Origin: a bacterium
Lineage (GTDB): Bacteria; Patescibacteriota; Minisyncoccia; UBA6257; 2-01-FULL-56-20
Assembly: GCA_021780195.1 (NCBI GenBank)
Contig: JAJXZE010000001.1
Coordinates: forward strand, 1,603 to 65,602
Direction of reading: 5' to 3'
DNA: 64,000 nucleotides
Part shown: positions 1 to 57,304 of the stretch, piece by piece
Position numbering within the stretch: the first letter of the stretch is position 1
How the letters are laid out: the number at the start of each line of letters is the position of its first letter
Translations under genes and position numbers: made by a program
The notes under the pieces: model-generated
Told to the model about the DNA's origin: nothing
The model's database searches: none
Seen by the model: only the letters and a program-made list of their open reading frames with translations

Positions 1-434
1 GTGTATTTGAGAACTTCGGTTACTTTGATGAGGAGTTTAATATGGCCGATGATTGGGAGATGTGGATACGCCTCGCGGCGCAAGGCGTATCGTTCGCCTC
101 AATCCATGAGCCCCTTTTTAAATATCATATTCATGGCACCAATATAACTAAAACCATAGCTACGGGAAAGATGATAAAAGACCTGGAGTATTTAGCGATA
201 AAGCACGAATCTCTTTATAGCAGATATCCTCGCGCCAGATCAAGAATGATGGCATATCTTGGGAAGCTTTATGCCGACGATGGAGAGCTGACGCGGGCGC
301 AAAGTATACTGAAGCAAGCAATAGTTCTGGATAGAGCCAACTGGAAAGCATATGTCACCCTCCTCATCTCGAGTCTTGGGATAAAGACATACCGTCGAGC
401 TGCGTCGGCGATAAAATTTTTCAGAGGTAGCTAA
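1..434 (+). CDS. glycosyltransferase family 2, C-terminal fragment (5' end lies upstream of window)
   Basis: Frame-3 translation from position 3 reads VFENFGYFDEEFNMADDWEMWIRL..., the typical GT2 C-terminal region; the 42..434 ORF continues this frame to its stop. Confidence 0.55.
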   Translation, partial: VFENFGYFDEEFNMADDWEMWIRLAAQGVSFASIHEPLFKYHIHGTNITKTIATGKMIKDLEYLAIKHESLYSRYPRARSRMMAYLGKLYADDGELTRAQSILKQAIVLDRANWKAYVTLLISSLGIKTYRRAASAIKFFRGS

Positions 435-435
435 A

Positions 436-1212
436 ATGGGGAGCATTAAGAAGGCGATAAGAATTTTGAGAGAAAGAGGCGTACGGGTCTTTTTTGATAA
501 GATTATTAATCGGCTACGATTAGCGTTCCGCCCTATCTATATAAAATTTTTTATCTCAGGCAGAGAGATGGGTATGATAAAAGAACTTAGTGAGTTTGAT
601 GCGAGAGACTGTGACGCCGTTTTCACTTTCATCACTAAAAAATATTTTGGGATATTTAGTGCCATGCAAATCAAGAATGAGTTTATAAAATTGCTCAAGA
701 GAATTGAACGCAAGCACCCAAAATACGTACTTGAGGTGGGAACGGCCAATGGCGGAGCCCTTTTCTGCTTCGCCAAACTTGCGTCAGATGATGCCGTGGT
801 GATCAGCATCGATTTGCCGGAGGGTAAATTTGGAGGAGGCTACGAGAAATGGCGCGCGCCATTCTTTGGAGCGTTTCGCAGAAACGGGCAGAAGATATTT
901 CTTCTAAGAGAGGATTCCCACGCACCCGCAACGTTAGAACGCGTGAAAGAAATTTTGGGAGGGCGGCAGCTCGACTTCCTCTTTATTGATGGCGATCATA
1001 CCTATAGTGGAGTGAAACAGGACTTTGACATGTACCGCCCATTGGTCAAAAAAGGAGGCGTGGTCGCTTTTCATGATATCGTGGATGGTTTTGAGGAGTA
1101 TGTTGGCGGCGTGCCTAGATTTTGGCGAGAGCTGAAGGTTGGTTGTGACTATGAAGAATTTGTTCAGGATTGGGAGCAGGGCGGCTATGGCATTGGCATT
1201 TTGTCAGTGTAG
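436..1212 (+). CDS. class I SAM-dependent methyltransferase (TylF/MycF-like O-methyltransferase fold)
   Basis: VLEVGTANGG ... FLFIDGDHTYSGVKQDF ... GGVVAFHDI motifs; sits inside a glycosyltransferase locus. Confidence 0.6.
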   Translation: MGSIKKAIRILRERGVRVFFDKIINRLRLAFRPIYIKFFISGREMGMIKELSEFDARDCDAVFTFITKKYFGIFSAMQIKNEFIKLLKRIERKHPKYVLEVGTANGGALFCFAKLASDDAVVISIDLPEGKFGGGYEKWRAPFFGAFRRNGQKIFLLREDSHAPATLERVKEILGGRQLDFLFIDGDHTYSGVKQDFDMYRPLVKKGGVVAFHDIVDGFEEYVGGVPRFWRELKVGCDYEEFVQDWEQGGYGIGILSV

Positions 1213-1282
1213 CGCGGATAAATGATGTGCCAAGAGCCGAGCCTCCGTTCCAATAGGCGTGGATTGGAGGTACTATTAAGAT

Positions 1283-2314
1283 ATGTCGGCTTCTCAGGAA
1301 GAGAAACATTTGCGAGAAAATAACGTGCAGGTGCCAAAAATTTCCGTCGTCATTCCTTCTTACAACGGGGAGGCATTCATAGGCAAGGCAATTCGCAGTG
1401 TTCTCAATCAGACCTTCCAGGATTTTGAGGTTCTCGTAGTAGATGATTGTTCGACGGATGGCACCCGGGACGAGGTACGGAGATTTGAGGCAATCGATAA
1501 AAGAGTGCGCCTATTTACCCTTAAAAAAAACTCCGGCGGCCCAGCTAGTCCGAGCAATCTTGGTATAGGGAAAAGCCGAGGAGAGTATGTATCATATCTT
1601 GATCAGGATGATATATATCTCCCAGACAGTCTCGAAAAAAGATGGCGCGTCTTGCAGGGAGCCAAGACCGACGTGCTGATCGCTAACATGTGGGTCGTGG
1701 ATTTGCGGAGCAATAAGTTTATCGATTACCTCAACTCAAACTTTTCCAGCTTTATTATTTCTAGAAAAATGTTTGATAAGGGTGAAATCGGGTTGCTGAG
1801 CGAAGAGGCATCCGGCATAGATGAATATGAATGGTCGCTGAGATATAGATTGAAAAATGGAGGAGAAAGAATTCGTTATTTTGAGGAACCCGCGGTGCTT
1901 TACGCTAGGCATCCAGGGCAGATGTCGGAAAGTCACTATTCAGAAAAATCAATCAAGGATTTTCTTAGAAGAGATTTCGTGGTTTTAAAATGGGCGGAAA
2001 TGGGCGGAAACGACTTTCGAGTCGATCTGGCTTGGATTTATTTTTGGATTGGTTACCGATATGGGCTTCTTGGAGAGTTTGATCACTCAAGACGATATTT
2101 AGAGAAATCGCTGGACAATGGAGCGTCTCTTGTTGCTCGGACATTTCTCCTCGTCGGCCTCGTAAGAAGCAGGCCTCTCTATGTCGCGGTCGACAAGGCG
2201 GCCAAATGGATAAAAAAAATATTTATAAAACGATGGAGGCTTAATAGTATGGTGAAGAAATATCCCGCATCATATCGAGACGCACTCGCCTTTTATGGAA
2301 AGATAACCTCCTAA
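1283..2314 (+). CDS. glycosyltransferase family 2 (copy 1 of tandem pair)
   Basis: KISVVIPSYNGEAFIGKAIRSVLNQTFQDFEVLVVDDCSTDGT signature (DxD-type GT-A); an alternative GTG start at 1331 would give a MPKISVV N-terminus identical to copy 2. Confidence 0.8.
   Translation: MSASQEEKHLRENNVQVPKISVVIPSYNGEAFIGKAIRSVLNQTFQDFEVLVVDDCSTDGTRDEVRRFEAIDKRVRLFTLKKNSGGPASPSNLGIGKSRGEYVSYLDQDDIYLPDSLEKRWRVLQGAKTDVLIANMWVVDLRSNKFIDYLNSNFSSFIISRKMFDKGEIGLLSEEASGIDEYEWSLRYRLKNGGERIRYFEEPAVLYARHPGQMSESHYSEKSIKDFLRRDFVVLKWAEMGGNDFRVDLAWIYFWIGYRYGLLGEFDHSRRYLEKSLDNGASLVARTFLLVGLVRSRPLYVAVDKAAKWIKKIFIKRWRLNSMVKKYPASYRDALAFYGKITS
1332..1485 (+). repeat. approx 152-bp near-identical direct repeat shared with 2318..2471 (one mismatch), covering the first ~50 codons of two adjacent GT2 genes
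   Basis: Direct nucleotide comparison of the two gene 5' ends: identical except ccag/ccaa, diverging after gaggtacggagatt. Confidence 0.85.
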
Positions 2315-2316
2315 AT

Positions 2317-3288
2317 ATGCCAAAAATTTCCGTCGTCATTCCTTCTTACAACGGGGAGGCATTCATAGGCAAGGCAATTCGCAGTGTTCTCAATCAGACC
2401 TTCCAAGATTTTGAGGTTCTCGTAGTAGATGATTGTTCGACGGATGGCACCCGGGACGAGGTACGGAGATTACAGAAGAAAGACGCTAGGATCAACTTAA
2501 TAGGATTAAACAAAAATACGGGTGGTCCAGCATCGCCGCGAACGTTAGGATGCAAGGCGGCGCGCGGAGAACTGATTGCATTTATCGATCAAGATGATAT
2601 TTTTTACCCACATTATTTGGAGGCGAAGTTTGATTTTTTTAGAAATCACCCAAATATAAATTTTCTGGCAAGCTGGGCTTGGACGTTTGATCCTGATTCA
2701 AAAAAAATCATCAATTGTGAATATGGCGGACCAGTTAACACCATGATTCGCGCAGAGATTTTAAAAACTATTAATTATTTCGATCCCAGAGAGACCGGTG
2801 TCGATGATTCGGGTATGTGGTACCGTTATCTGGTGCATTATGGCTCGCGTGCAAGTGCTTATGTGGAGTTGGCTCCGTTGACACTATATGCACGCTATGC
2901 TGGGCAAGGTTCGGACGTGGAGAGTAAGGACTTTAAAGAACTAGCAGAGAAGCTCAAGATGATTATTGGTGCATACTATGGTGAAGGAAACGGGGAAGTA
3001 TTCGCCTTTGTTTCTTCTCTCAAGTCGCGCATTGGCAATTTTTTATGCTTGTCGGGCGACGTTAAGCAAGGAAAGGGATATTTTAGGGAGTCCTTAAGAT
3101 TGCGATTCACATTTTTTGCATTTGGATTATTGTTAATGTCTACTTTTGCTCCACGGCATTATAGACGAACTGAGGCCCTCTTGAGAAAATTTCAAAGAAG
3201 CGTGGTGTGGCGCGCGAACGTTTTTATAAAATGGTTAAAGTATCGAAAAAGCTACACAGAAGCCCGGGCCATTTTATCTCAATACTGA
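2317..3288 (+). CDS. glycosyltransferase family 2 (copy 2 of tandem pair)
   Basis: N-terminal 50 aa identical to the preceding GT2; DDCSTDG motif; stop overlaps the next start (TGATGA). Confidence 0.8.
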   Translation: MPKISVVIPSYNGEAFIGKAIRSVLNQTFQDFEVLVVDDCSTDGTRDEVRRLQKKDARINLIGLNKNTGGPASPRTLGCKAARGELIAFIDQDDIFYPHYLEAKFDFFRNHPNINFLASWAWTFDPDSKKIINCEYGGPVNTMIRAEILKTINYFDPRETGVDDSGMWYRYLVHYGSRASAYVELAPLTLYARYAGQGSDVESKDFKELAEKLKMIIGAYYGEGNGEVFAFVSSLKSRIGNFLCLSGDVKQGKGYFRESLRLRFTFFAFGLLLMSTFAPRHYRRTEALLRKFQRSVVWRANVFIKWLKYRKSYTEARAILSQY

Positions 3289-4385
3289 TGAAAGTTTTAT
3301 TGGTTCATGGAACGAATTTGGTGTCGGGTGGAGAGGCGGTTTCCCTTGGGATTGCGAAGACGTTGGGGAAACATAACTTTGTTTTTTTTCTCCCAGGGAA
3401 GCCAGGGGACGAAAATCTCTTCCTGACATTCGGCGTCTATTATCCCTATCGCCGTGGTCTAGTTCGACTGATAAGGCGTCTGATTGAGGTGATGCGCAAA
3501 GAAAAACCTGATATTGTTCATGCACAAGGCTTACGAGCGGCGGCACTAGTAAAGGTGGCTTATTATCTCTCGGGGAAAAAAGGGAAATTTATCTATACCC
3601 TGCATGGAATTCATTTTATACGCAAGCAACTGCCGGCCCGAGTCGCATTTCTCCTTTTTGAGAAGGTTACCAATAAACTGGTTGACGCCCTAGTTTGTGT
3701 CGGGAGGGATGATTTTGAATTGGCGAAGACCCTGCATTTGGTCAGTAGTGAAAAGCTGTTCTTGATAAGGAATGGTATAAATTTGAGAGACGTAAAAAAC
3801 ACTCGTAGTGGGCATGTAGAGACGGGCTCTTGCAAGGAAGATCAAGTTGTCATCACCACGGTCTGCCGGCTCCACCATCAAAAAGATGTCGGGAGTCTTA
3901 TCGAGGCAGTTTCCATGCTTAGGGAAAATGGAGTAATGCTTTTGATAGTTGGTGATGGCCCAGAGCGGTCTCAGTTGGAGATGCTCAGTGCCAGTCTTTG
4001 CTTGGATGGCCGCATCAATTTTCTCGGGAATAGAAGTGACGTTGATCAAATTCTTTCCATAACAGACATTTTTGTATTGTCGACTCACTGGGAAGGCCTC
4101 CCTCTCGTTGTTCTAGAAGCCTGGGCACACAAAAAACCGGTTATAGCTTCCAAGGTACACGGGGTAAAGGACCTCATTAATGATGGAGATAATGGTCTGC
4201 TATTTGATGAGAGTGCCCCACGCGATTTATCAGAAAAAATAATATCGATTTTGAAAAATAGAGATCTAGGGGTGAGGCTTGGAGAGAATGGTTACCATCT
4301 CGTGAAAGCGCAATACGCATTAGAAATAATGGCAAAAAACTATGATGCGTTATATGCAAAAATATTGTGTTCTTCGGATAGGTAA
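3288..4385 (+). CDS. glycosyltransferase family 4 (GT-B fold)
   Basis: MKVLLVHGTNLVSGGE N-terminus and EGLPLVVLEAWAHKKPVIASKVHGVKDLINDGDNGLLF C-terminal GT4 motif; ATG at 3288 chosen rather than the upstream ORF-track extension. Confidence 0.8.
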   Translation: MKVLLVHGTNLVSGGEAVSLGIAKTLGKHNFVFFLPGKPGDENLFLTFGVYYPYRRGLVRLIRRLIEVMRKEKPDIVHAQGLRAAALVKVAYYLSGKKGKFIYTLHGIHFIRKQLPARVAFLLFEKVTNKLVDALVCVGRDDFELAKTLHLVSSEKLFLIRNGINLRDVKNTRSGHVETGSCKEDQVVITTVCRLHHQKDVGSLIEAVSMLRENGVMLLIVGDGPERSQLEMLSASLCLDGRINFLGNRSDVDQILSITDIFVLSTHWEGLPLVVLEAWAHKKPVIASKVHGVKDLINDGDNGLLFDESAPRDLSEKIISILKNRDLGVRLGENGYHLVKAQYALEIMAKNYDALYAKILCSSDR

Positions 4386-5485
4386 TGAAAATTCTTCAGG
4401 TCAATAAACTCTATTCTCCCTGGATCGGCGGGATTGAGACGGTGGCGCAGGATATCGCCGAACATTTTCACGGCAGGGATGGTGCGAGGGTGGTGAATCT
4501 TGTGTGCCAGCCGAGCGGTGCGCGAAAAATCGGGGGAGTGAACGGGGTGCCGACGTATCGCGCGGCGAGTTTTGGAATGGCGTTCGGCATGCCGCTCTCT
4601 CTCGATTTTTTCCGTTTGTTCAAAAAACTTTCCGCGGACGCCGATGTGATTATTCTACACCACCCGTTTCCGATCGCTTTCATCGCGTACCGCCTCTTCG
4701 GGAAGGGGAAAAGAGTGATCGTATGGTATCACTCCGATATCGTGAGGCAAAATATCGCGAAGGCACCGTTTATGCCATTCATCCGCGCCGTGCTTGCCGC
4801 CGCGGAACACATCCTCGTGTCGAATGAAGCCATCATTAAGCATTCCGCCGTCCTAAAAAAGTTTTCCGATAAATGCCGCGTCGTCCGTTTCGGTGTTGAC
4901 CCTGCGAGATTTCGGGAGACAGGCGCGATAGAAAAAGCGGAGGACGAAATAAGGAATGAGTATGGATCGCCGCTCATTCTCTCCGTGGGTCGCCTTGTCT
5001 ATTATAAGGGCTACTCTTATTTGATCGATGCGATAAAGGACGTTCCGGCGCACCTGCTGATCGTCGGGAGCGGGCCCTTACGTGCCGCCCTTAACGCTCA
5101 AATCAGGCGTAATGGCATGGGCGATAAGGTATTTATCGTGGGATCCGTCGACGACCTTGTCCCGTATTATCACGCATGCGACGTCTTTGCGTTGCCCTCG
5201 TGCGAACCTTCCGAGATGTTCGGCATCGTGCAGATTGAGGCCATGGCGTGCGGCAAGCCGGTCGTGAACACCGCACTTCCGACGGGCGTACCCGAAGTAA
5301 GCGTTGACGGGAGAACCGGAAAGACCGTCCCGCCGAAAGATGCCCCCGCACTTGCGGAAGCGCTACGGGAGATTTTATCCAATAAAGACGAGTATGACCG
5401 CTTTTCCGCGAATGCCACAAGGGAAGTTGCGGCGAGATTTACGAAGGAGAAATTTTTTGCCGAGATGGAGCACTATCTCTCCTAG
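4385..5485 (+). CDS. glycosyltransferase family 4
   Basis: MKILQVNKLYSPWIGGIE ... EPSEMFGIVQIEAMACGKPVVNT (EX7E-type GT4 motif). Confidence 0.8.
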   Translation: MKILQVNKLYSPWIGGIETVAQDIAEHFHGRDGARVVNLVCQPSGARKIGGVNGVPTYRAASFGMAFGMPLSLDFFRLFKKLSADADVIILHHPFPIAFIAYRLFGKGKRVIVWYHSDIVRQNIAKAPFMPFIRAVLAAAEHILVSNEAIIKHSAVLKKFSDKCRVVRFGVDPARFRETGAIEKAEDEIRNEYGSPLILSVGRLVYYKGYSYLIDAIKDVPAHLLIVGSGPLRAALNAQIRRNGMGDKVFIVGSVDDLVPYYHACDVFALPSCEPSEMFGIVQIEAMACGKPVVNTALPTGVPEVSVDGRTGKTVPPKDAPALAEALREILSNKDEYDRFSANATREVAARFTKEKFFAEMEHYLS

Positions 5486-6966
5486 TCGGCCGATATTATA
5501 CGGGCGGGCATCAGCGTGTGCTTTATCTCCGCGAGCAGGGGCTCCCGGAAGGCCGCGAGGAGCGCGACATAAATCAGCGCGGAAGCGGCAATATTCACTG
5601 CAACATTGGCGCCGAGCGCGGCAAGGAGCGTGGTCGTCCCGGCCATCACGACGCCCGCCACGACGACCTTCTTGAGTTGCGGCATCACGGAAAAGTAATT
5701 GATTTTTTTCATGATGTGCCAGAGGTACCAGTTGACGGCGATCTGAGTGGCGAGCGTGCCGAACGCGGACCCCGCCATCCCGAAGCGGGGAATAAGGATG
5801 AGGTCGAGGCCGACGTTCATCACGCCTGCAAGAAGGGAGGTTTTGATGAGGCTTTTCTGGTGGTCATAGGCGAAGATCGCGCCGCTCACGATAGTTGCGG
5901 GAAAGTCGACGAGCATGGTAATCACAAGGATCTGAAACGGGAAAGTTCCGGGGAGATATGCTCCGCCAAAGATAAGACCGAGAATCGGGGCGGCGAGTAT
6001 CGCCCCGCCAAGGGCCATCGGTATTGAAAAGACAAAGGTAAATCCCACGGTACGCTCAAGGACTGTGCGGAATCTCGCTTTTTCCCCGCCATGAACGAGA
6101 CGCGCGAGGAGCGGCATGGTGCTGAATTGGAAAATGACGGGGAGAAGATAGAGAATCTGCACAATGCGGATCGCGGCGGAATAGATGCCGACCTCGGAAG
6201 CGTCCCGCATCCAGCTCAGGATAAGGATGTCCATGTTCGTGAGGAGGAGTCCCAGCGCGCCCGTGACGGCAAATGGCCATGCCGAGGTGAGGATGGGCTT
6301 TACGAGCGCCTTCGAAAACGAAGCGAAGATATTCTTGAGATATTTACGGAGCACGGCCGCCGCCGCGAGCGCGCCCGCCACGGTGCCCAGCGTATATGCC
6401 CAGCCGAGGGAAAGCGGCGAGGGCGATACGGCAAGGAAGGCGAAGCCGAAGACCACGATCATAAGATTCGTGAAAAGGAAAATTGCGGTTTCCCACTCCA
6501 TCTTTTCGCGCCCGCGGAGGAAGGCGGACAGGAAGTCGCGCGTGCTGTCGAAGGCGATGATGAGTGCCACAATGGGGAGGAGGGCGTCGGCGCCGGGCAA
6601 GGTGCTGAAGTATGGGCCGACGAAGATTACGAGGAGAACGATAACGGCGACGAGGACGAGTTTCATTACAAGCGTTGTTGCAAGGATGCGTCGCTCTTCC
6701 TGCTCGTTTTGCGCCTTGGGGGTTTCTCTCATCACCATGGCGTTCACGCCCGGGTCGATGAAGAGCGTGAGGAATCCCGCAAGCGTGAGGGCATACGAAA
6801 ACACGCCGTATCCCGCGGTACCGAGGACGCGGGCGGCGTAAATGATGATCACAGCCTTGAGCGCCCGCCCGCCGAAGTTCGTGACGGCGAGCCAGAAGCT
6901 GTTCTTGGCTACGGTCTGCTTTGCGGTCTTGTTCTCGAAGAGGAATGATTTTATCCGGCGTATCAT
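5482..6966 (-). CDS. oligosaccharide/polysaccharide flippase (Wzx-like, MOP superfamily)
   Basis: 494-aa multi-pass membrane protein, N-terminus KNSFWLAVTNFGGRALKAVIIIYAARVLGTAGYGVFS typical of polysaccharide biosynthesis flippases. Confidence 0.75.
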   Translation of the reverse strand: MIRRIKSFLFENKTAKQTVAKNSFWLAVTNFGGRALKAVIIIYAARVLGTAGYGVFSYALTLAGFLTLFIDPGVNAMVMRETPKAQNEQEERRILATTLVMKLVLVAVIVLLVIFVGPYFSTLPGADALLPIVALIIAFDSTRDFLSAFLRGREKMEWETAIFLFTNLMIVVFGFAFLAVSPSPLSLGWAYTLGTVAGALAAAAVLRKYLKNIFASFSKALVKPILTSAWPFAVTGALGLLLTNMDILILSWMRDASEVGIYSAAIRIVQILYLLPVIFQFSTMPLLARLVHGGEKARFRTVLERTVGFTFVFSIPMALGGAILAAPILGLIFGGAYLPGTFPFQILVITMLVDFPATIVSGAIFAYDHQKSLIKTSLLAGVMNVGLDLILIPRFGMAGSAFGTLATQIAVNWYLWHIMKKINYFSVMPQLKKVVVAGVVMAGTTTLLAALGANVAVNIAASALIYVALLAAFREPLLAEIKHTLMPARIISAD

Positions 6967-9862: not shown

Positions 9863-10465
9863 TCAGGAAAGGGGGACGCGGTTTCTGAATTTCTTGCGCA
9901 TTGCCTTGGTGAACCCGTACATGGCGAGGCCGGCAAGCGTGATGAGCGCCGCGAGGAACATCCACTGGAACCCCTTATTAACCAGTGAGTACAGCTGCCC
10001 GAAGAAATAGCCGATGGAAAAGAGGAATCCTGCCCAGACAAACTCGCCGAAGAAATTGACGGTGAAGTATTTTTTAAAGGGCACGCGCGCCGCGCCGGCG
10101 GCGATCAGAACCGCAATGGCCATACCGAAGCCCGTCGTGAGCTTGGAGATGAAAAGGATCTTCGTCTGGTGCTTATGGAAAAAGGTTTCGGCCCGCTCTA
10201 CATTCGCCTCGGTGACGTCGAAGAAATGGCCGTACTTTTCAATGAGCGGCCTCCCGCCGTACTTTCCCGCGAAATACCATCCGATGTCCGCCGTCAGATC
10301 GCCTGCGACGAGGACGAGGTAGATCGGCCAGAATTCGAAAAATCCCGTGTGCACGAGGAATCCGGCGACTATCATGACGACGGGTCCCTCGACGATGGCC
10401 AAGGGGAAGGCGATCGCGTAGCGGTAGCTCACGAGCCACGCGAGGATGGGGGATGCGGTTGGCAT
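9863..10465 (-). CDS. DedA/SNARE-associated family membrane protein
   Basis: The 200-aa C-terminal part of the 455-aa ORF (MPTASPILAWLVSYRYAIAFPLAIVEGPVVMIVAGFL...) has the DedA pattern; the upstream 255 aa are charged low-complexity sequence antisense to the neighbouring gene, so the start is placed at the internal Met. Confidence 0.7.
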   Translation of the reverse strand: MPTASPILAWLVSYRYAIAFPLAIVEGPVVMIVAGFLVHTGFFEFWPIYLVLVAGDLTADIGWYFAGKYGGRPLIEKYGHFFDVTEANVERAETFFHKHQTKILFISKLTTGFGMAIAVLIAAGAARVPFKKYFTVNFFGEFVWAGFLFSIGYFFGQLYSLVNKGFQWMFLAALITLAGLAMYGFTKAMRKKFRNRVPLS

Positions 10466-10498
10466 AAGGATGCTATTTATTATAATATAGTATTGTTC
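10466..10498. promoter_or_regulatory. AT-rich divergent intergenic region (likely bidirectional promoter for DedA and PAP2-like genes)
   Basis: ataaggatgctatttattataatatagtattgttc: a 33-nt strongly AT-rich spacer with TATAAT-like hexamers between divergent starts, in otherwise GC-rich DNA. Confidence 0.35.
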
Positions 10499-11161
10499 AT
10501 GCTGGCCATCTTCAAAGAACACCGGGGATTCTGGACCCCCGAGCACAAGCGGTCGCTTTATTTCGGGATCATGCTGATCCTCATCGCGCTCGTCGTGCAT
10601 CTCGCGGCGGGCTTCTATTCCGCGGACAAGGCGGCCATCGCTCCCTCGGTCCACGACCTTTTCCTGGACAATCTCCCGGTCGTGAATCTCGATTTTCTGA
10701 TCGTCGGCGGAAACATCATTTTCTTCTGGATCATCCCGGTCATCCTCTTCGCCGTCCGGCCGCGCTATCTCCTCTTTGCGGTCAAGGCGATCGCGCTCTT
10801 CGTCATCATTCGCGCGTTCTTCACGACCCTCACCCACATCGGCATCTATCCCGACGGCGCGATGCCTTCGGCCGCGAACCTCGGCTACAGTTTTTACGAG
10901 CTCGTGAACTTCCAGGGAAACCTCTTTTTCTCCGGGCACACCGGGTATCCCTTCCTTATCGCGCTCATCTTCTGGAATAACGTCTTCTGGCGCCGTTTCT
11001 ACGTCGGCGCGACGGTGGTGTTCGCCGCCGCGGTGCTCCTCGCGCACGTGCATTATTCGATCGACGTCTTTGCGGCGCCCTTCATCGTCTACGGCATCTA
11101 CACGCTCGCCGCGCGCTTTTTCCCGGATGACTTCGCGCTTTCGGTAAGTTCGCGCATCTGA
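10499..11161 (+). CDS. PAP2-like / sphingomyelin-synthase-like membrane phosphatase family protein
   Basis: Multi-TM protein with FFSGHTG and HVHYSIDV motifs (PAP2 SGH and HxxxD signatures); start taken at the internal Met because the ORF-track N-terminus is antisense to DedA. Confidence 0.5.
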   Translation: MLAIFKEHRGFWTPEHKRSLYFGIMLILIALVVHLAAGFYSADKAAIAPSVHDLFLDNLPVVNLDFLIVGGNIIFFWIIPVILFAVRPRYLLFAVKAIALFVIIRAFFTTLTHIGIYPDGAMPSAANLGYSFYELVNFQGNLFFSGHTGYPFLIALIFWNNVFWRRFYVGATVVFAAAVLLAHVHYSIDVFAAPFIVYGIYTLAARFFPDDFALSVSSRI

Positions 11162-11174
11162 TATACTGGGACGC

Positions 11175-11987
11175 ATGGAAACCCCGAACATGGAAACCCC
11201 GAACGGCGACAAGCTTTTACCCATCAGCATTCTCGCGGCGGCGGTCGTGATCGGCGGCGCGATCCTCTTTTCGGTCTTCTACCGACCAAGCGCGGGAGCG
11301 CCCCCGGCGCCCGGCGCGGGTGCGGGGACGGCTCCCACGAGCACGGCGGCGGCTCCGGGCGTGCCTTCGGCGGCGGCCGTCGCGGCGGCACTCGCGCTCA
11401 CGCCGCGCGACGTGGCGCTCGGCAATGCGAGCGCGACCGTCACGGTCGTCGAATACGGCGACTACCAGTGCCCGTTCTGTACGCGGTATTTTGAGCAGAT
11501 CGAGCCGATCCTCATCCAGAATTACGTGAACCCCGGGAAGATTAAATTGGTCTTCCGTGATTTCCCGTTCCTCGACCGCTTCCCCGGCCTTCCGGCGGGG
11601 TCGAACGAGTCGCACGTGGCGGGCGCCGCGGCGGAATGCGCGAAGGATCAGAACAAGTTCTGGCAATATCACGACGCGCTCTACACGGCGAAGTCCGCCG
11701 ACGAGGCCAAGGGCGGCGGCGAGAACGACGGCCTTTTCACTCCGGCGTTCCTGACCTCGCTCGCCGGAAAGGAGGGGATGAACACGGCGACTTTCTCGTC
11801 CTGCCTGACAAGCGGGAAATACACGGCGGCGGTCAACGCCGACTACGCGAATGCCGTGGCGGCGGGCGTGGATTCCACGCCGACCACGTTCGTAAATGGG
11901 GTGATGGTGACGGATACTTCGGGTAACAGCGTGGGGGCGGATCTGAGCGCCATTACGGCGGCAATCGACGCCGCGCTCGCGAAATAG
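11175..11987 (+). CDS. DsbA-family thiol:disulfide oxidoreductase (thioredoxin domain, CPFC active site)
   Basis: TVVEYGDYQCPFCTRYFEQIEPIL ... KFWQYHDALY; N-terminal TM anchor; the start carries a tandem 15-nt duplication (METPN METPN). Confidence 0.75.
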   Translation: METPNMETPNGDKLLPISILAAAVVIGGAILFSVFYRPSAGAPPAPGAGAGTAPTSTAAAPGVPSAAAVAAALALTPRDVALGNASATVTVVEYGDYQCPFCTRYFEQIEPILIQNYVNPGKIKLVFRDFPFLDRFPGLPAGSNESHVAGAAAECAKDQNKFWQYHDALYTAKSADEAKGGGENDGLFTPAFLTSLAGKEGMNTATFSSCLTSGKYTAAVNADYANAVAAGVDSTPTTFVNGVMVTDTSGNSVGADLSAITAAIDAALAK

Positions 11988-17138: not shown

Positions 17139-17223
17139 GGAGGCGTCGCATAGTGGTCTAGTGCGCTCGCTTGGAAAGCGAGTATGTCGAAAGGCATCAC
17201 AGGTTCGAATCCTGTCGCCTCCG
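17139..17223 (+). tRNA. tRNA-Ser (anticodon GGA), class II with long variable arm; CCA not encoded
   Basis: Acceptor GGAGGCG/CGCCTCC, anticodon arm CTCGC-TTGGAAA-GCGAG, variable arm ~17 nt, T-arm ACAGG-TTCGAAT-CCTGT, discriminator G. Confidence 0.8.
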
Positions 17224-17227
17224 CGGA

Positions 17228-17380
17228 GAATGCCGAAAGGGCTTTGAAGAGCCAGAATAAAATCCCCCAGCGGGGATTTTTTCTTGTCCCTCGGCCCATT
17301 TGCCGAAAACAAACGAATGTTTTCGGACCGTGCCAAACGGGCCTGCGGGATCCTCTTCAAGGCCCTTTCGGCATTCTTTT
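17228..17380 (+). other. nested stem-loop element directly 3' of tRNA-Ser: 24-bp long-range stem (17228..17251 with 17353..17376) enclosing two hairpins, followed by a T-run
   Basis: gaatgccgaaagggctttgaagag pairs with ctcttcaaggccctttcggcattc (one G-U); the interior holds the intrinsic terminator 17262..17282 and a 9-bp hairpin ccgaaaaca/tgttttcgg. Confidence 0.5.
17262..17282 (+). terminator. rho-independent terminator after tRNA-Ser (ATCCCC-cagc-GGGGAT plus T6)
   Basis: aaaatcccccagcggggatttttt. Confidence 0.6.
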
Positions 17381-17674
17381 GGCGGGTGCGATGACTCGAA
17401 CCGGAGCGCCGCCCCGGGTAGGAGGGAGCCGCGTTCTTACGCGGCGGGTCGGGAACCGAGGGTTCCCGAAACGGGGGTCGGGGCGGCGCGCAAGATTCGA
17501 GGAGCGAGCGTAGCGAGCGACGGAATCCTGTCGATTTATATAAGGGGGTTTCTGGCACGTTTTCCACAAAAACATGCCTTTTCTTTTGTCCACTTTCGGC
17601 AATTTGCCCCTCATTATTTAATAATATACAATGGAGAGGTGGAAATATCACCCTTCCATTAAACATATTGATAT

Positions 17675-18250
17675 ATGGCCACTGACAACCTTATTGCCAA
17701 ATTATACGAATCCCCCAAGACAATCCTGACCATTAAGGACATTGCTTTGATTTGGGGAGAAACAAACACCGTCAATCTTCTCACGAAGATAAAATACTAC
17801 GCGAAGCAAGGATCGCTGATTCGACTGACTCGTGGCGTATTTGCCAAAAACAAAGAGTATGATCTGAAAGAATTAGCAGGAAGTATCTATACTCCTTCTT
17901 ATATCAGTTTTGAAACCGTGCTCCGTGAGACCGGCATTATTTTTCAACATCACGATGCGATTTTTGTAGCCGGTCCCTATCCGATGACCAAGAAAATCGA
18001 CGATCACACGATCGTCTTTCGCAAACTGAAAGACAGCGTTTTATACAACGGGCTCGGCGTAAAAAAAGAAAAGAGCTATAGCATCGCTACGCCGGAGCGA
18101 GCATTCCTCGACACCATATATCTATCCCCTAAGTTTTATTTCGATAACTTGCGATCCATCAATTGGGATCAATGTTTTGAACTGGCAAAAATATACGATA
18201 ACAAACAATTGATCAAGCGGATAACTAAATATAAAAAACATGCTGAATAA
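17675..18250 (+). CDS. AbiEi-like antitoxin / transcriptional regulator (type IV TA, abortive infection)
   Basis: 191-aa protein in the AT-rich patch, placed directly upstream of and overlapping an AbiEii-type nucleotidyltransferase gene; wHTH-like N-terminus. The call rests on context and length plus weak pattern similarity. Confidence 0.6.
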   Translation: MATDNLIAKLYESPKTILTIKDIALIWGETNTVNLLTKIKYYAKQGSLIRLTRGVFAKNKEYDLKELAGSIYTPSYISFETVLRETGIIFQHHDAIFVAGPYPMTKKIDDHTIVFRKLKDSVLYNGLGVKKEKSYSIATPERAFLDTIYLSPKFYFDNLRSINWDQCFELAKIYDNKQLIKRITKYKKHAE

Positions 18251-18953
18251 AGAAAAACACCAACTCGTTATGGGGCAGATTTTGAGAGATATTTATTCCG
18301 ATACCTCCATATCTTCCCTGATCGGATTCAAGGGCGGCACCTGTGCTTATTTTTTCTATGGCCTGACAAGATTTTCTATAGACCTCGACTTCGACCTGTT
18401 TTCCACTGATGAAGCTACGCAAAAGCTCGTGTACGAAAGAATCGGTGGTATGTTGGAAAAATACGGAGAGGTCAAAGATAATTACATAAAACGAAACACC
18501 ATATTCTTCCTGCTTTCTTATGGCGATGCCGACCACAATGTGAAAATTGAAGTGAACATGAGAATTCTTATGCCGGATATCAAGGAGCACTACGAAGTAA
18601 AAGAATATCTGGGCATTTCTATGCTTGCGGGCAAAAAAGATTATCTTTTTGCGAGTAAGCTGGCCGCATTGACCACAAGAAGCGAAACGGCAATGCGTGA
18701 TGTGTATGACGTTTGGTTTTTTGGCACAAATCACTGGGATATAAACGTTGATGTGATCAAGGCAAGAACTGGCAAGACTATCAAAGAATACATGGCTGAT
18801 TGCCTTCCGGTTGTTGAGGCAATCAAAGATAATGAAATTTTGAGAGGATTGGCTGAGCTTTTGCCGGACGAAAAAGCAAAGGCGTGGGTAAAAACTCACT
18901 TAAGAAAAGAGGTTATCTTTCTGCTCAAAAATTACCAATCCGTATTAAAATGA
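18240..18953 (+). CDS. AbiEii/AbiGii-family nucleotidyltransferase toxin (DUF1814)
   Basis: FKGGTCAYFFYG (the GGT motif of the DUF1814 NTase family) and later D/E-rich motifs; 11-nt overlap with the upstream AbiEi-like gene. Confidence 0.7.
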   Translation: MLNKEKHQLVMGQILRDIYSDTSISSLIGFKGGTCAYFFYGLTRFSIDLDFDLFSTDEATQKLVYERIGGMLEKYGEVKDNYIKRNTIFFLLSYGDADHNVKIEVNMRILMPDIKEHYEVKEYLGISMLAGKKDYLFASKLAALTTRSETAMRDVYDVWFFGTNHWDINVDVIKARTGKTIKEYMADCLPVVEAIKDNEILRGLAELLPDEKAKAWVKTHLRKEVIFLLKNYQSVLK

Positions 18954-21532
18954 ACGGCCTTGCCAAAACCGACGCACTGAAATTCTCGCTCGCCGATCTT
19001 TATGCCAAGCTCGGCACGTCTGAACAGGGCCTTACCGAGAAAGAAGCCGGAAGCCGCCTCGCATCCTCGGGGCCGAACGTTCTCAAGCGAAAAAGCGTGA
19101 ACGCTCTGGACATCCTCGGCCGCCAATTGAAAAGTTCGCTCATTTATCTTCTCATTGGGGCAAGCCTCTTGGCGTACAGTATCCATGATTTTCGGGATGG
19201 CACGATCATCCTCGTCATTCTCCTGATCAACACCTCTCTCGGTTTTTATCAGGAATATAAATCAGAAAAAATCGTCGAAAAACTCTCACGTTTTATCACG
19301 AGGCAGGTCAGGGTAAGGCGCAATGGGCAGATTTCATTGGTTGACGAATCGCAAGTCGTCGTAGGCGACATCCTCATCGTCCGCGAGGGCGACATCGCTT
19401 CAGCTGACATGCGGCTCATCGATACCGAGGACCTGCGGGTCAACGAGTCGCAGCTTACGGGCGAGTCGGCGCCGGTCGCAAAACAGGATTCGACAGGTGC
19501 GGGCGCGAAACCGGAAAACATGCTTTTCACCGGCAGTGTCGTTGAGAAGGGCGAAGGCGTGGGGATTATTTATGCGACAGGAAATGATACGGAGCTTGGC
19601 GTGATCGCAAAGCTTTCCACGGAGACGAAGAAGCAGACGCAATACGAAAAATCGCTTCAGTCATTCAGCTCGTTCCTCATAAAAATTGTCCTAATCGGCC
19701 TTGCCATCATCTTTATCGCCAAATTTTTCCTCGCGCACGGCTCAGGCACCACCGACCTTCTTCTCTTCGTCATCGCGCTCGCCGTGGGAACGGTGCCGGA
19801 GGTGTTGCCCGTGATCGCAACGGTGACGCTTTCGGCGGGGGCGCTCAAGCTTGCCAAACAGCACGTTGTGGTGCGACGCCTGTCCGCCATGGAAGATTTC
19901 GGGAATATCAATCTTCTTTGCACCGACAAGACGGGTACCATCACCGAGAATAAAATGGTGGTAAAGAAAGTTACGGCAACTGACGAGAAGCTTTTTCAGG
20001 TTTTTGCCTATGCGGGTATCACGCCGCTCAAGGGGCGCAAGAAACGGACGCAGAATTCATATGACGAGGCCTTTTTACAGTACGCGTCCGAAGAAATAAA
20101 GAAGGAGGCGGGACATTTCAGGATCCTTAAAGAATTGCCGTTCGATCCCGAAGACCGGAGGAGCCGGTTGGTCGTTGAAAATACGGAGCACAAAAGATGC
20201 TATCTGCTTTCGATCGGCGCGCCGGAAACCTTATTGGCGATAAGCGGCGCAGGACATAAGGCGGAGTATCTCCGCGACATCGCCAAAGAGGGCGGAGAGG
20301 GATTGCACCATCTTGCCATTGCCTATAAAGAGATTTCATATTCAGACAACTTCGACATTTTGAAGAACGAACATGATCTGGCATTTCTTGGCTATGCGAG
20401 CATGGAAGATCCGCTGCGCCCCTCCGCAAAAAAAACCATCGAGCGCGCAGAACGTCTCTGCATCACGATAAAGATCCTTACGGGAGACGGCCGCGAAGTC
20501 GCCGAATACGTCGGGAAACAGATCGGACTTTTGAAGGAGGGCTCTAAGGTCTACCTTGGAGACGAACTGGAAGCGATGACACAGGACGAGTTCAAGGCCG
20601 CGGTCCAGCGCTCGACCATTTTTGCAAGAGTTTCCCCGACCCAGAAGTTCAATATCATCAAAGCCCTCAAGGAGACGAATGTCGTCGGATATCAGGGCGA
20701 CGGCATCAATGACGCTCCCGCCCTGAAGCTTGCGGACGTGGCGATCGCCGTGAATTCCGCAACCGACATCGCGAAAGAGAATGCGGACATCGTGCTTTTA
20801 AACAAAAGCCTGGAGGTCATCATCAACGGCATCAGGTATGGCCGCTCGATTTTCGTAAATATCAATAAATATATCCGTTATACGATGAGTAATAATTTCG
20901 GAGCGTTCGTCGGGCTTTCGACGCTGTATCTGCTCTCCGTCAATCTGCCGATTCTTCCGGTGCAGGTACTGCTCAATAACCTGTTCGGCGACATCCCGCT
21001 CATCATGGTCTCGACCGACACCGTCGAAGACGACGAGGTGGTACAGCCGGAACGACACAACATGCGTGAACTCATGTTCATATCGCTCATTCTCGGCGTT
21101 CCGACCGCGCTCTTCGAGATACTTTACTTCGCCACCATCAGGGCCCAAACAAGCTCGGTTGCGCAAACCAGCCTCTATGTCTTCCTTACGTTCCAGGCGC
21201 TCATCATCTTCTATGCCATTCGCAATAAAAAACATTTTTGGAAGGCAAAAATGTCGTCCGCCGCACTCAACATCTCATTTTTCCTGGCGTTCGTTCTTTC
21301 TCTCGGCATTATCTTCATCCCGCAGTTCCAGGCATGGTTCTCATTCGTACCGATCTCCGCAACGGCGATCGGCACCATTATGATACTCATGTTGCTCTAC
21401 TTCCTTGCCGTTGATTATGTGAAGGTTTGGTATTATCAGGGGACTCGGCTCGGCGGATTATATACCGAATCGGCAACGGCGGGGACCGCGGCGATGGGTG
21501 CTCATTCTGAAAAGCGGGGCGATCAATTTTAA
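18950..21532 (+). CDS. cation-transporting P-type ATPase (MgtA/Ca2+-ATPase-like, P-type II/III)
   Basis: CTDKTGTITENKM phosphorylation motif, GDGINDAPALKLADV hinge motif, about 10 TM segments; start at the internal ATG that overlaps the AbiEii stop (ATGA). Confidence 0.85.
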   Translation: MNGLAKTDALKFSLADLYAKLGTSEQGLTEKEAGSRLASSGPNVLKRKSVNALDILGRQLKSSLIYLLIGASLLAYSIHDFRDGTIILVILLINTSLGFYQEYKSEKIVEKLSRFITRQVRVRRNGQISLVDESQVVVGDILIVREGDIASADMRLIDTEDLRVNESQLTGESAPVAKQDSTGAGAKPENMLFTGSVVEKGEGVGIIYATGNDTELGVIAKLSTETKKQTQYEKSLQSFSSFLIKIVLIGLAIIFIAKFFLAHGSGTTDLLLFVIALAVGTVPEVLPVIATVTLSAGALKLAKQHVVVRRLSAMEDFGNINLLCTDKTGTITENKMVVKKVTATDEKLFQVFAYAGITPLKGRKKRTQNSYDEAFLQYASEEIKKEAGHFRILKELPFDPEDRRSRLVVENTEHKRCYLLSIGAPETLLAISGAGHKAEYLRDIAKEGGEGLHHLAIAYKEISYSDNFDILKNEHDLAFLGYASMEDPLRPSAKKTIERAERLCITIKILTGDGREVAEYVGKQIGLLKEGSKVYLGDELEAMTQDEFKAAVQRSTIFARVSPTQKFNIIKALKETNVVGYQGDGINDAPALKLADVAIAVNSATDIAKENADIVLLNKSLEVIINGIRYGRSIFVNINKYIRYTMSNNFGAFVGLSTLYLLSVNLPILPVQVLLNNLFGDIPLIMVSTDTVEDDEVVQPERHNMRELMFISLILGVPTALFEILYFATIRAQTSSVAQTSLYVFLTFQALIIFYAIRNKKHFWKAKMSSAALNISFFLAFVLSLGIIFIPQFQAWFSFVPISATAIGTIMILMLLYFLAVDYVKVWYYQGTRLGGLYTESATAGTAAMGAHSEKRGDQF

Positions 21533-56576: not shown

Positions 56577-56651
56577 GCGTCCTTAGCTCAGTGGTAGAGC
56601 GCTACAATGACACTGTAGAGGCCGGAGGTCCGATCCCTCCAGGACGCACCA
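56577..56651 (+). tRNA. tRNA-Val (anticodon GAC), CCA encoded
   Basis: GCGTCCT TA GCTC-AGTGGTA-GAGC G CTACA-ATGACAC-TGTAG AGGCC GGAGG-TCCGATC-CCTCC AGGACGC A CCA. Confidence 0.85.
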
Positions 56652-56787
56652 CGGCGAAGGCGCGCTCCTCGGCGGACGCGGTTCGCGCGTGCTCGCGCGG
56701 CCGCTCGCTCTCGGCGTTGCCGACCTCCTCGTTTTTATCGTTCTCCGGGACGCCTCCGAGATGCCGCCGAGGAGCACGCCTTCGCCG
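56652..56787. repeat. 136-bp element bounded by 24-bp inverted repeats (23/24 complementary) between tRNA-Val and tRNA-Ile; either a MITE-like insertion or an RNA processing stem
   Basis: cggcgaaggcgcgctcctcggcgg (56652..56675) pairs with ccgccgaggagcacgccttcgccg (56764..56787). Confidence 0.5.
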
Positions 56788-56860
56788 TGGTGTTTCGCGC
56801 GAGGATTGGTCCCTCCTTGCGATTTGCGATGCAGTGGTGTAAAAAAGAATAGTATTTTAG

Positions 56861-56932
56861 GCGCATGTAGTTCAGTGGTAGAACGCGTTCCTGATAAGAA
56901 CGAGGTCGAAGGTTCGATTCCTTCCATGCGCA
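56861..56932 (+). tRNA. tRNA-Ile (anticodon GAT)
   Basis: GCGCATG TA GTTC-AGTGGTA-GAAC G CGTTC-CTGATAA-GAACG AGGTC GAAGG-TTCGATT-CCTTC CATGCGC A. Confidence 0.85.
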
Positions 56933-56947
56933 CATATAAATTTCGTG

Positions 56948-56993
56948 TTTGACGCGTTATCCGTGTTGATATAATATGAACACATGTTCATAT
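56948..56993 (+). promoter_or_regulatory. promoter (TTTGAC, 16 nt, TATAAT) plus 9-2-9 inverted repeat ATATGAACA-ca-TGTTCATAT overlapping the arsR start (candidate ArsR/SmtB 12-2-12-type operator)
   Basis: tttgacgcgttatccgtgttgatataatatgaacacatgttcatat; the palindrome arms match the TGAA..TTCA type seen in CzrA/SmtB operators. Confidence 0.5.
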
Positions 56994-57304
56994 ATAAGCG
57001 GTGCGTCTGCAGGGTGGAACCCCACGACAAGATCGACCTCGCCGAGTTCAGTGGAATCGCGGAGCAAATGAAGTTCCTCTCGACGCCGAGCCGGATCGCC
57101 ATCCTTTCGCTTCTCTATAAGGCACCGCACTGCGTCTGCGATCTTGAAACGCATACCGGTTTGTCGCAAACGCTCCTTTCCCATCATTTGAAGGATCTTG
57201 CGAAAGGGGGATTGGTGGCGAGCGCAAAAGAAAAAACATTTGTGGAATATCGATTGACTACGAAGGGCCGAAAACTGGTGCGGATGATAGGGCAAATCAA
57301 GTGA
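56984..57304 (+). CDS. arsR: ArsR/SmtB-family transcriptional regulator
   Basis: PSRIAILSLLYKAPHCVCDLETHTGLSQTLLSHHLKDLAKGGLV (wHTH with CVC metal-sensing motif). Confidence 0.75.
   Translation: MFIYKRCVCRVEPHDKIDLAEFSGIAEQMKFLSTPSRIAILSLLYKAPHCVCDLETHTGLSQTLLSHHLKDLAKGGLVASAKEKTFVEYRLTTKGRKLVRMIGQIK

What the first reader, a model, noticed from the sequence alone, without database searches (positions are those of the whole stretch)
1283..3288. Tandem GT2 paralogs sharing a near-identical 152-bp 5' segment (recent duplication or gene conversion)
Copy 1 (from 1332) and copy 2 (from 2318) are identical over about 152 nt except one synonymous-looking mismatch. They then diverge abruptly after gaggtacggagatt, and the remaining roughly 290 codons are unrelated at the protein level.

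Copy 1 has an in-frame GTG exactly where copy 2 has its ATG.

This mosaic pattern suggests recombination or gene conversion that swapped N-terminal nucleotide-binding modules between glycosyltransferases. Such repeats also enable phase-variable deletion of the intervening roughly 1 kb.

The whole 1-9.9 kb polysaccharide locus looks lower in GC than the downstream core genes, consistent with horizontal acquisition.
Basis: seen in the sequence. Interest (0 to 1): 0.5.

Follow-up and report, generated by a model that had tools for sequence, protein, structure and literature searches.

The report
Gene-conversion tract between adjacent glycosyltransferase genes
Two neighbouring, anciently diverged sugar-transferase genes in a surface-polysaccharide cluster of an uncultured Patescibacteria (CPR) bacterium carry a freshly copied, nearly identical 154-base 5' segment, which is an ordinary trace of recombination between paralogs and not a new kind of element.

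Summary
Window 1332-1485 and 2318-2471 are a 154-nt direct repeat with one mismatch (1420 G / 2406 A, synonymous CAG/CAA). It starts at base 2 of the GT2b start codon (ATG 2317, aligned with an in-frame GTG at 1331 in GT2a) and ends abruptly.

The two GT2 genes (1283-2314 and 2317-3288) are not unrelated beyond the repeat. They are end-to-end homologs of one GT2 subfamily: 27% amino-acid identity over 266 codons, with third-codon positions at 26% (saturated). These are old paralogs or xenologs onto which a very recent non-reciprocal copy (0.65% divergence) was laid.

An assembly artefact is unlikely. The same arrangement occurs in a second contig, and the internal SNP makes every 141-mer of the repeat copy-specific.

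A related locus with the same tandem pair shows only 68% identity at the 5' ends, so the event is lineage-specific. The direction of copying is unresolved, with weak hints for GT2b to GT2a.

The low-GC block covers only about 1-4450, not 1-9.9 kb. The host is a high-GC Paceibacterota-like CPR bacterium, and the cluster is a mosaic of two related CPR locus types.

Deletion between the repeats is possible but unobserved. This is an ordinary finding of low interest.

The parts
1332..1485 (+). Copy 1 of the 154-nt near-identical tract, inside GT2a (codons 17-68). It encodes (V)PKISVVIPSYNGEAFIGKAIRSVLNQTFQDFEVLVVDDCSTDGTRDEVRR.
2318..2471 (+). Copy 2 of the tract: the first 51 codons after the A of the GT2b start codon. 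It has 1 mismatch to copy 1 (2406 A versus 1420 G).
1283..2314 (+). GT2a, a family-2 glycosyltransferase of 343 aa. A GGAGG lies 12 nt upstream of ATG 1283. The 16-codon N-terminal extension has no homolog. The alternative start GTG 1331 aligns with the GT2b ATG. The ortholog P0121/P0233 is 67% identical.
2317..3288 (+). GT2b, a family-2 glycosyltransferase of 323 aa. Its start lies 2 nt after the GT2a stop codon (translational coupling inferred). The closest relatives are 41-49% identical (P0002-P0006, P0122). The AF2 model shows a GT-A fold plus a C-terminal helical region.
1213..1331 (+). A 119-nt stretch between the methyltransferase stop codon and the tract (spacer plus the GT2a 5' extension). 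It has no detectable similarity to the related loci. It is a synteny breakpoint: the L087-type locus carries two extra genes here (Methyltransf_21 and Glyco_trans_1_2).
1..4450 (+). Low-GC block (43-46% versus 60% for the rest) holding the GT2 3' end, the CmcI-like methyltransferase, GT2a, GT2b and GT4a. It continues at least 1.6 kb upstream in contig L001.

Best explanation
GT2a and GT2b are two anciently diverged members of one GT2 (GT-A fold) subfamily. They lie head-to-tail in an operon-like, horizontally acquired glycan-biosynthesis cluster of a Patescibacteria (Paceibacterota-like) genome. Very recently, a non-reciprocal homologous exchange (intragenomic gene conversion, or an equivalent recombinational rebuild of one 5' end using the neighbour as template) copied the first ~51 codons of one gene onto the other. 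The conserved GT2 N-terminus, already about 65-75% identical at the DNA level, supplied the homology. The tract runs to the 5' limit of homology (the start codon) and ends in the middle of helix alpha2. One synonymous substitution has accumulated since.

The likely functional effect is small. Both enzymes now have identical beta1-alpha1-beta2 nucleotide-binding elements but keep their own acceptor-side and C-terminal parts. A side-effect is a 154-bp direct repeat that could mediate RecA-type deletion of 986 bp. That deletion would remove GT2a and leave a GT2b carrying the GT2a 5' leader.

Shown: the repeat, the paralogy, the saturation outside the tract, the lineage specificity, and the synteny break at the tract's 5' edge. 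Inferred: the mechanism, the direction and the consequences.
For: - The repeat is 153/154 identical with sharp edges.
- Outside the tract, amino-acid identity is 27% and third-position identity 26% (random level) over 266 aligned codons. Inside the 52 aligned tract codons, start codon included, third positions are 96% identical.
- The proteins align end to end with each other and with a family of 320-340 aa GT2s.
- The related loci L003 and L087-L092 carry the GT2a ortholog (67%) followed by a second GT2, but those two share only 68% over 309 nt at the 5' ends.
- No database protein has more than 60% identity restricted to the N-terminus, so an external donor is not seen.
- The same sequence and arrangement occur in a second contig, the MEGAHIT k141 contig L001, 100% identical over 9,288 nt. 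The SNP at repeat position 89 makes all fourteen 141-mers inside the repeat copy-specific (inference).
- DNA homology to the L087 GT2a ortholog begins at window 1335, the tract start, next to an indel of two genes.
- Homologous recombination is active in the related population: 27 SNPs cluster in ~410 nt of the neighbouring gene against 0.74% overall.
- The tract shows no RNA structure signal (z = -0.13) and no promoter or terminator enrichment.
Against: - The direction cannot be established. Sliding-window comparisons of GT2a with its ortholog and of GT2b with P0122 show no clear discontinuity at the tract edge.
- A 5' boundary lying exactly at the end of homology is not what simple heteroduplex-based conversion predicts. 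It may instead point to a more complex rearrangement, such as an illegitimate junction linked to loss of the two upstream genes.
- No read-level data were available, so mis-phasing or strain mixing in the metagenome cannot be formally excluded.
- The two contigs may derive from the same reads.
Confidence: 0.8

Rival explanations
1. Assembly artefact: a collapsed or chimeric metagenomic contig created the shared segment, for example from two co-occurring strains or species whose GT2 genes were stitched through a conserved region.
For: The sequence is a metagenome assembly. Related organisms with homologous loci occur in the same series of ENA samples. Short-read assemblers can mis-join at repeats.
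Against: - A chimeric join through a shared segment gives one copy of the segment, not two. The tandem layout needs four distinct junctions that must all be present in reads.
- The alternative pairing of the four junctions gives only a 986-bp circle plus a deletion.
- The copies differ at one position, leaving exact stretches of only 88 and 65 nt. At k=141 every k-mer in the repeat is therefore unique.
- Two contigs of different length (75.9 kb and 12.9 kb) carry the identical arrangement.
- The nearest relatives' 5' ends are only 70-75% identical to the tract, so there is no near-identical source in related strains.
Confidence: 0.05
2. Recombinational assembly of the locus. The tract is the footprint of the event that joined two locus types: an L087-like left half ending in GT2a and an L005-like right half starting with GT2b. 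It could also be the footprint of a Campbell-type or unequal-crossover insertion that duplicated the 154-bp homology on both sides of the inserted GT2a body. Under this reading it is not a later conversion between resident neighbours.
For: - The window locus is a mosaic. DegT-RmlC-GT2-MT-GT2a matches L087 (83/72/55/62/66% aa). GT2b-GT4-GT4-flippase matches L005 (49/59/68/55% aa).
- The tract's 5' edge coincides with a synteny breakpoint.
- In L004 the methyltransferase is followed directly by a GT2b-like gene.
- Single-crossover integration is known to leave direct repeats of the homologous segment (established knowledge).
Against: - The halves are only 50-80% identical to the reference loci, so the mosaic is old, whereas the tract is 99.4% identical. 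The two events are therefore not obviously contemporaneous.
- The L087-type locus already has GT2a followed by a second GT2, so the tandem layout predates the tract.
- The 119 nt upstream of copy 1 do not resemble the methyltransferase-GT2b junction of L004.
Confidence: 0.12
3. Selectively maintained identity: the identical 5' segment is kept by selection, not by neutral recent conversion. Possible reasons are a shared regulatory RNA or translation element, a shared protein-protein interface, or a programmed substrate for on/off deletion that generates glycan heterogeneity.
For: - The glycan cluster shows other hallmarks of variability. Four of the seven A8/T8 runs in the window lie in 1523-3389, against 0.24 expected in 1-4450.
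- A poly-A length change splits the neighbouring gene in related contig L090.
- Such dispersed repeats are rare: none of at least 100 nt at 95% or more in 90 other GT2 loci.
Against: - The tract has no excess RNA structure.
- The related tandem pair lacks the homogenised tract, so it is not a conserved feature.
- No deletion variant is present in public data.
- A deletion would be irreversible, so it is not phase variation in the strict sense.
Confidence: 0.03

Closest known systems
Interlocus (ectopic) gene conversion between bacterial paralogs, for example class-I release factor genes prfA/prfB (PMC4530459) and the tufA/tufB type of concerted evolution (own knowledge)
   Same: There is a short, sharply bounded stretch of near-identity between otherwise diverged paralogs in one genome. 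It is non-reciprocal and seeded in the most conserved part of the genes.
   Different: Here the paralogs are adjacent and far more diverged (27% aa, synonymous sites saturated). Only one small tract at the extreme 5' end is affected. No comparative series showing repeated conversion is available.
Helicobacter pylori futA/futB fucosyltransferase paralogs (PMC2583950)
   Same: [quoted passage not shown] Together with homopolymer phase variation, this diversifies the glycan (abstract).
   Different: futA and futB are highly similar along most of their length and are not adjacent. Exchange there was observed experimentally in populations. Here it is inferred from a single consensus sequence in an uncultured CPR bacterium.
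Neisseria lgt locus (lgtA/lgtD and lgtB/lgtE paralog pairs in one cluster; PMC2191774, PMC2192810)
   Same: Glycosyltransferase paralogs are repeated in direct orientation within one glycan locus. Some strains carry a reduced locus (strain 15253 has only lgtA and lgtE). Homopolymer tracts in the GT genes cause phase variation.
   Different: That the reduced Neisseria locus arose by recombination between the paralogs is my recollection and was not verified in the held text. The lgt paralogs are similar over most of their length. No deletion variant has been seen for the window locus.
GT-A fold family-2 glycosyltransferases such as SpsA, TarS/TarP and the Leptospira GT 6p61
   Same: Pfam PF00535 matches both genes. 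The AF2 model (pLDDT 91.6) superposes on 6p61, TarS, TarP and SpsA with Foldseek E 1e-14 to 1e-17. The N-terminal DD (in VVDDCS) and the DQDD (DxD-type) motifs are conserved.
   Different: No NCBIfam equivalog reaches its cut-off; the best is TuaG at 105-110 bits against a cut-off of 400. Donor and acceptor sugars are therefore unknown. The C-terminal ~100-residue helical region is specific to this subfamily.

Membership tests
Glycosyltransferase family 2 (GT-A fold, Pfam PF00535) | Significant match to the PF00535 profile above the gathering score | tested here: met
   GT2a scores 112.9 bits and GT2b 112.4 bits against a cut-off of 23.3.
Glycosyltransferase family 2 (GT-A fold, Pfam PF00535) | GT-A Rossmann-like fold with an N-terminal nucleotide-binding beta-alpha-beta and a DxD-type motif | tested here: met
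   The AF2 model has pLDDT 91.6. Foldseek top hits are 6p61, TarS, TarP, HS2 and SpsA. The DD (D38 D39) and D91/D93/D94 (DQDD motif) columns are invariant across 23 family members.
Glycosyltransferase family 2 (GT-A fold, Pfam PF00535) | Demonstrated transferase activity and donor/acceptor specificity | not testable with these tools
   No NCBIfam equivalog passes its cut-off.
Interlocus gene conversion tract between paralogs | Paralogs are much more similar in a bounded segment than elsewhere, with synonymous sites homogenised too | tested here: met
   Third-position identity is 96% in the tract versus 26% outside it. Nucleotide identity is 98% over the 52 aligned tract codons (153/154 within the repeat itself) versus 40% outside.
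Interlocus gene conversion tract between paralogs | In the segment, paralogs within the genome are closer to each other than each is to its ortholog, while the reverse holds outside it | tested here: met
   In the tract, GT2a versus GT2b is 98% aa, and each is 69% to the GT2a ortholog. Outside it, GT2a is 67% to its ortholog and 25% to GT2b.
Interlocus gene conversion tract between paralogs | Orthologous pair in a related genome lacks the homogenised tract (lineage-specific event) | tested here: met
   The L003/L087 tandem pair shares only 68% over 309 nt.
Interlocus gene conversion tract between paralogs | Identified donor and recipient (non-reciprocity) | tested here: inconclusive
   There are weak hints for GT2b as donor: an MPK(I/V)S-type N-terminus, and tract identity to the GT2a ortholog lower than the family calibration predicts. 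Sliding windows show no clear break.
Phase-variable (reversible, high-frequency) switch | Both states present in a population, and reversibility | tested here: not met
   No hybrid or deletion protein was found among 5.8 billion proteins; only the intact GT2b appears. A deletion between direct repeats is irreversible (established knowledge). Read-level minor variants could not be tested.

The most novel reading that the evidence does not exclude
The 154-bp direct repeat is a functional substrate for recurrent RecA-mediated excision of GT2a. Together with the A8/T8 tracts in the same genes, it would give this host-dependent CPR bacterium a population-level mechanism for varying its surface glycan, and repeated conversion would keep the repeat identical.
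Probability: 0.04. Interest if true: 0.55.

Novelty: new member of a known kind. Interest (0 to 1): 0.2.

Why it matters
The finding documents recent intragenomic recombination inside a horizontally acquired, mosaic glycan-biosynthesis cluster of a Patescibacteria genome. Little is known about surface-glycan variation in that group. The phenomenon itself, a short conversion tract between paralogous glycosyltransferase genes, is well known in cultivated bacteria. It changes neither the annotation nor the predicted function of either enzyme. The main practical value is a caution: such repeats can confuse assemblers, and the two genes should not be annotated as recent duplicates.

Tried and rejected
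- **Plasmid similarity.** A megablast of window 1-5500 against plasmids found nothing.
- **Genome scan.** A genome-contig scan with the family alignment returned no close relative of the window genome.
- **Donor direction.** I tried tract versus rest identity calibrated on family pairs, DNA similarity of the tract to related loci and sliding windows against orthologs. These gave only weak, non-decisive hints.
- **Origin of the 119 nt upstream of copy 1.** No similarity above shuffled controls was found to L087, L005, L004 or the GT2a 3' end.
- **RNA element in the tract.** Folding gave z = -0.13, so this was rejected.
- **Promoters and terminators in 1-5600.** Counts were not above shuffled expectation.
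- **Third-party donor of the N-terminus.** No hit had more than 60% identity confined to the N-terminal third.
- **Literature.** A search for gene conversion in glycosyltransferase clusters gave mostly irrelevant papers. Useful analogues came from targeted searches.
- **Not run.** The metagenome-contig scan for a deletion junction was not run. The protein search over JGI, ENA, Logan and NCBI had already shown no hybrid protein, and consensus contigs would not reveal minority variants.

Full report
**Observation**

Reading the sequence and the repeat finder confirm a direct repeat. Window 1332-1485 and 2318-2471 are 154 nt long, 986 nt apart, and 153/154 identical.
- The single difference (1420 G versus 2406 A) is a third-position CAG/CAA change, both Gln. 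It splits the repeat into exact stretches of 88 and 65 nt.
- One base upstream, the copies differ (G versus A). This gives an in-frame GTG (1331) in the first gene opposite the ATG start (2317) of the second.
- Downstream, identity collapses right after GGAGATT.
- A blastn of the tract against the whole window finds no third copy.
- The equivalent region of the tandem paralogs in a related locus is 68% identical. On that background, the probability of at least 153/154 matches is about 1e-24.

**The genes**

ORF 1283-2314 (GT2a, 343 aa) and ORF 2317-3288 (GT2b, 323 aa) both match Pfam Glycos_transf_2 at about 112 bits.
In fact they align over their whole length (BLASTP E 1e-59).
- They belong to a distinct subfamily of 320-340 aa GT2s with a conserved C-terminal helical region.
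- Outside the tract they share 27% amino-acid identity over 266 aligned codons. Third codon positions match at 26%, which is the random level.
- Across the 52 aligned tract codons, start codon included, third positions match at 96%.

The genes are therefore old paralogs, or xenologs brought together long ago, and the tract is a very recent overlay (0.65% divergence).

An AlphaFold2 model of GT2b (pLDDT 91.6) has a GT-A fold. It resembles a Leptospira GT (6p61), TarS/TarP and SpsA. The tract covers beta1, alpha1, beta2 and the first half of alpha2, so it ends in mid-helix. It is part of the nucleotide-binding half of the domain, not a separable module.

No NCBIfam equivalog passes its cut-off, so sugar specificity is unknown.

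**Context**

The genes sit in a polysaccharide cluster. In gene order, the cluster contains the following:
- DegT-like and RmlC-like genes and a GT2, upstream in contig L001
- a CmcI-like methyltransferase, 436-1212
- GT2a and GT2b
- two GT4 genes, 3288-5485
- on the other strand, a Wzx-type flippase, a Bac_transf initiating transferase and two more GT2s

The spacing between genes is minimal; the GT2b ATG lies 2 nt after the GT2a stop codon. There is no promoter or terminator signal above shuffled expectation. This is consistent with one operon.

GyrB (28169-30265) is 83% identical to proteins named Minisyncoccia or Candidatus Paceibacterota. The host is therefore a Patescibacteria (CPR) bacterium with an unusually high GC content (59% for the window).

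- GC is 43-46% over window 1 to about 4450, and also in the 1.6 kb upstream (L001).
- GT4b is at 54%.
- The minus-strand genes up to 9.9 kb are at 57-65%, like the rest of the window.

**Artefact?**

Both proteins occur on two contigs: the 75.9-kb source contig and a 12.9-kb MEGAHIT k141 contig. The second is 100% identical to the window over 9,288 nt and carries both repeat copies.

Because of the internal SNP, each of the fourteen 141-mers that fit inside the repeat is copy-specific, so the graph is unambiguous at k=141. A chimeric join through a shared segment would give one copy, not two. The only alternative pairing of the four junctions is a deletion plus a 986-bp circle. I rate an artefact at about 5%. 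Read-level confirmation was not possible.

**Related loci**

The GT2a ortholog (P0121/P0233, 67% identical) lies in CPR-like contigs of 36-38% GC from the same series of ENA samples (L003, L087-L092).
- There it is also followed by a second GT2, but the two share only 68% identity over 309 nt at their 5' ends. The homogenised tract is therefore specific to the window lineage.
- The window locus is a mosaic. DegT-RmlC-GT2-MT-GT2a is syntenic with L087 (83/72/55/62/66% aa). However, L087 has two extra genes (Methyltransf_21 and Glyco_trans_1_2) between MT and GT2a.
- DNA homology to the L087 ortholog begins at window 1335, the start of the tract.
- The 119 nt between the MT stop codon and the tract match nothing.
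- GT2b-GT4-GT4-flippase is syntenic with L005 (49/59/68/55% aa).

No protein among 5.8 billion has a near-identical N-terminus. The best N-terminal-only matches are below 60%, so an outside donor is not seen. No GT2a-leader/GT2b-body hybrid, the predicted deletion product, exists in public assemblies.

**Direction of copying**

The tract begins MPKIS..., the N-terminus typical of GT2b-type relatives (MPK/R-V/I-S). GT2a orthologs begin MENTRIS.

Family pairs were used as a calibration:

| Comparison | Identity outside the tract | Identity in the tract region |
|---|---|---|
| Family pairs (calibration) | 60-67% | 73-82% |
| GT2a versus its ortholog | 67% | 69% |
| GT2b versus its relatives | 40-45% | 49-69% |

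GT2a is lower in the tract region than the calibration predicts. The GT2b values are normal for that level of divergence.

At the DNA level the tract is 74-75% identical to the second-position GT2 of L003/L087-L092, to the L005/L006 GT2 and to L008, against 70-73% to the GT2a ortholog.

These are hints for GT2b to GT2a, but sliding windows show no clean break. I leave the direction open.

**Mechanism**

The best explanation (about 0.8) is recent non-reciprocal homologous exchange between the adjacent paralogs, seeded in the conserved GT2 N-terminus.

The tract's 5' end coincides with both the end of homology and a synteny breakpoint. This leaves room (about 0.12) for a more complex event: a rebuild of the GT2a 5' end after a rearrangement, or a single-crossover or unequal-crossover insertion that duplicated the homologous segment.

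Recombination is clearly active in the related population. L090 differs from L087 by 0.74% overall but by 27 SNPs in about 410 nt of the neighbouring gene.

A selected function for the identity is unsupported.
- The tract has no RNA structure signal.
- The feature is not conserved in the related locus.

The repeat could support RecA-type deletion of 986 bp, which would remove GT2a. That would be an irreversible loss, not phase variation, and no such variant is seen.

**Comparison with known cases and verdict**

This is the familiar pattern of interlocus gene conversion between bacterial paralogs, as in the release-factor genes (PMC4530459). Recombination between paralogous glycosyltransferase genes of surface-glycan loci is also familiar: H. 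pylori futA/futB (PMC2583950) and the Neisseria lgt paralog pairs (PMC2191774, PMC2192810).

In a sample of 90 other GT2-containing loci (860 kb), no dispersed repeat of at least 100 nt at 95% identity or more was found. Any single instance is therefore uncommon, but the kind of event is known.

Noticed in passing
window 1523-1530, 2212-2219, 2700-2707, 3382-3389; L090 about 6360: Four of the seven A8/T8 homopolymer runs of the 64-kb window lie inside GT2a (two), GT2b and GT4a. In 1-4450, 4 are observed against 0.24 expected from mononucleotide shuffles. In related contig L090, the Glyco_trans_1_2 gene is split by an A7-to-A8 change relative to L087. This could be slipped-strand variation of glycan genes in CPR, or sequencing error.
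   Followed up: partly
window 1-6966 versus L087 and L005: The glycan cluster is a mosaic. The left half is syntenic with a 37.6%-GC CPR locus (L087) but lacks its Methyltransf_21 and Glyco_trans_1_2 genes. The right half (GT2b, two GT4s, flippase) is syntenic with another locus type (L005).
   Followed up: partly
L087 versus L090, about 6134-6542 (Glyco_trans_1_2 gene): There is a cluster of 27 SNPs in about 410 nt against 0.74% divergence overall. This looks like an imported recombination tract between strains of the related CPR population.
   Followed up: no
window 17139-19000: tRNA-Ser (17139-17224) is immediately followed by a low-GC pocket (51% at 17-18 kb and 41% at 18-19 kb, against about 60% elsewhere). 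The pocket ends where a P-type ATPase gene starts (18884-21532). This may be a tRNA-adjacent island.
   Followed up: no
window 56577-58500: tRNA-Val and tRNA-Ile (56577-56933) precede another lower-GC stretch (50-52% at 57-59 kb).
   Followed up: no
whole window: By GyrB the host is a Paceibacterota/Minisyncoccia-type Patescibacterium (83% to named hits). Its GC content is about 59-60%, well above that of the related CPR-type loci fetched here (29-46% GC; L003-L008 and L087).
   Followed up: partly
window 9863-11230 (-): A 455-aa ORF next to the glycan cluster has a C-terminal domain matching the undecaprenyl-phosphate transporter UptA (DedA-like). The match is 66 bits, below the cut-off of 250. 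It may be linked to lipid-carrier recycling for the cluster.
   Followed up: no
L009 9566-9642 and 10788-10864: A 77-nt direct repeat at 91% identity, 1.2 kb apart, lies in a Selenomonadales GT2 locus. It may be a similar but older conversion tract.
   Followed up: no
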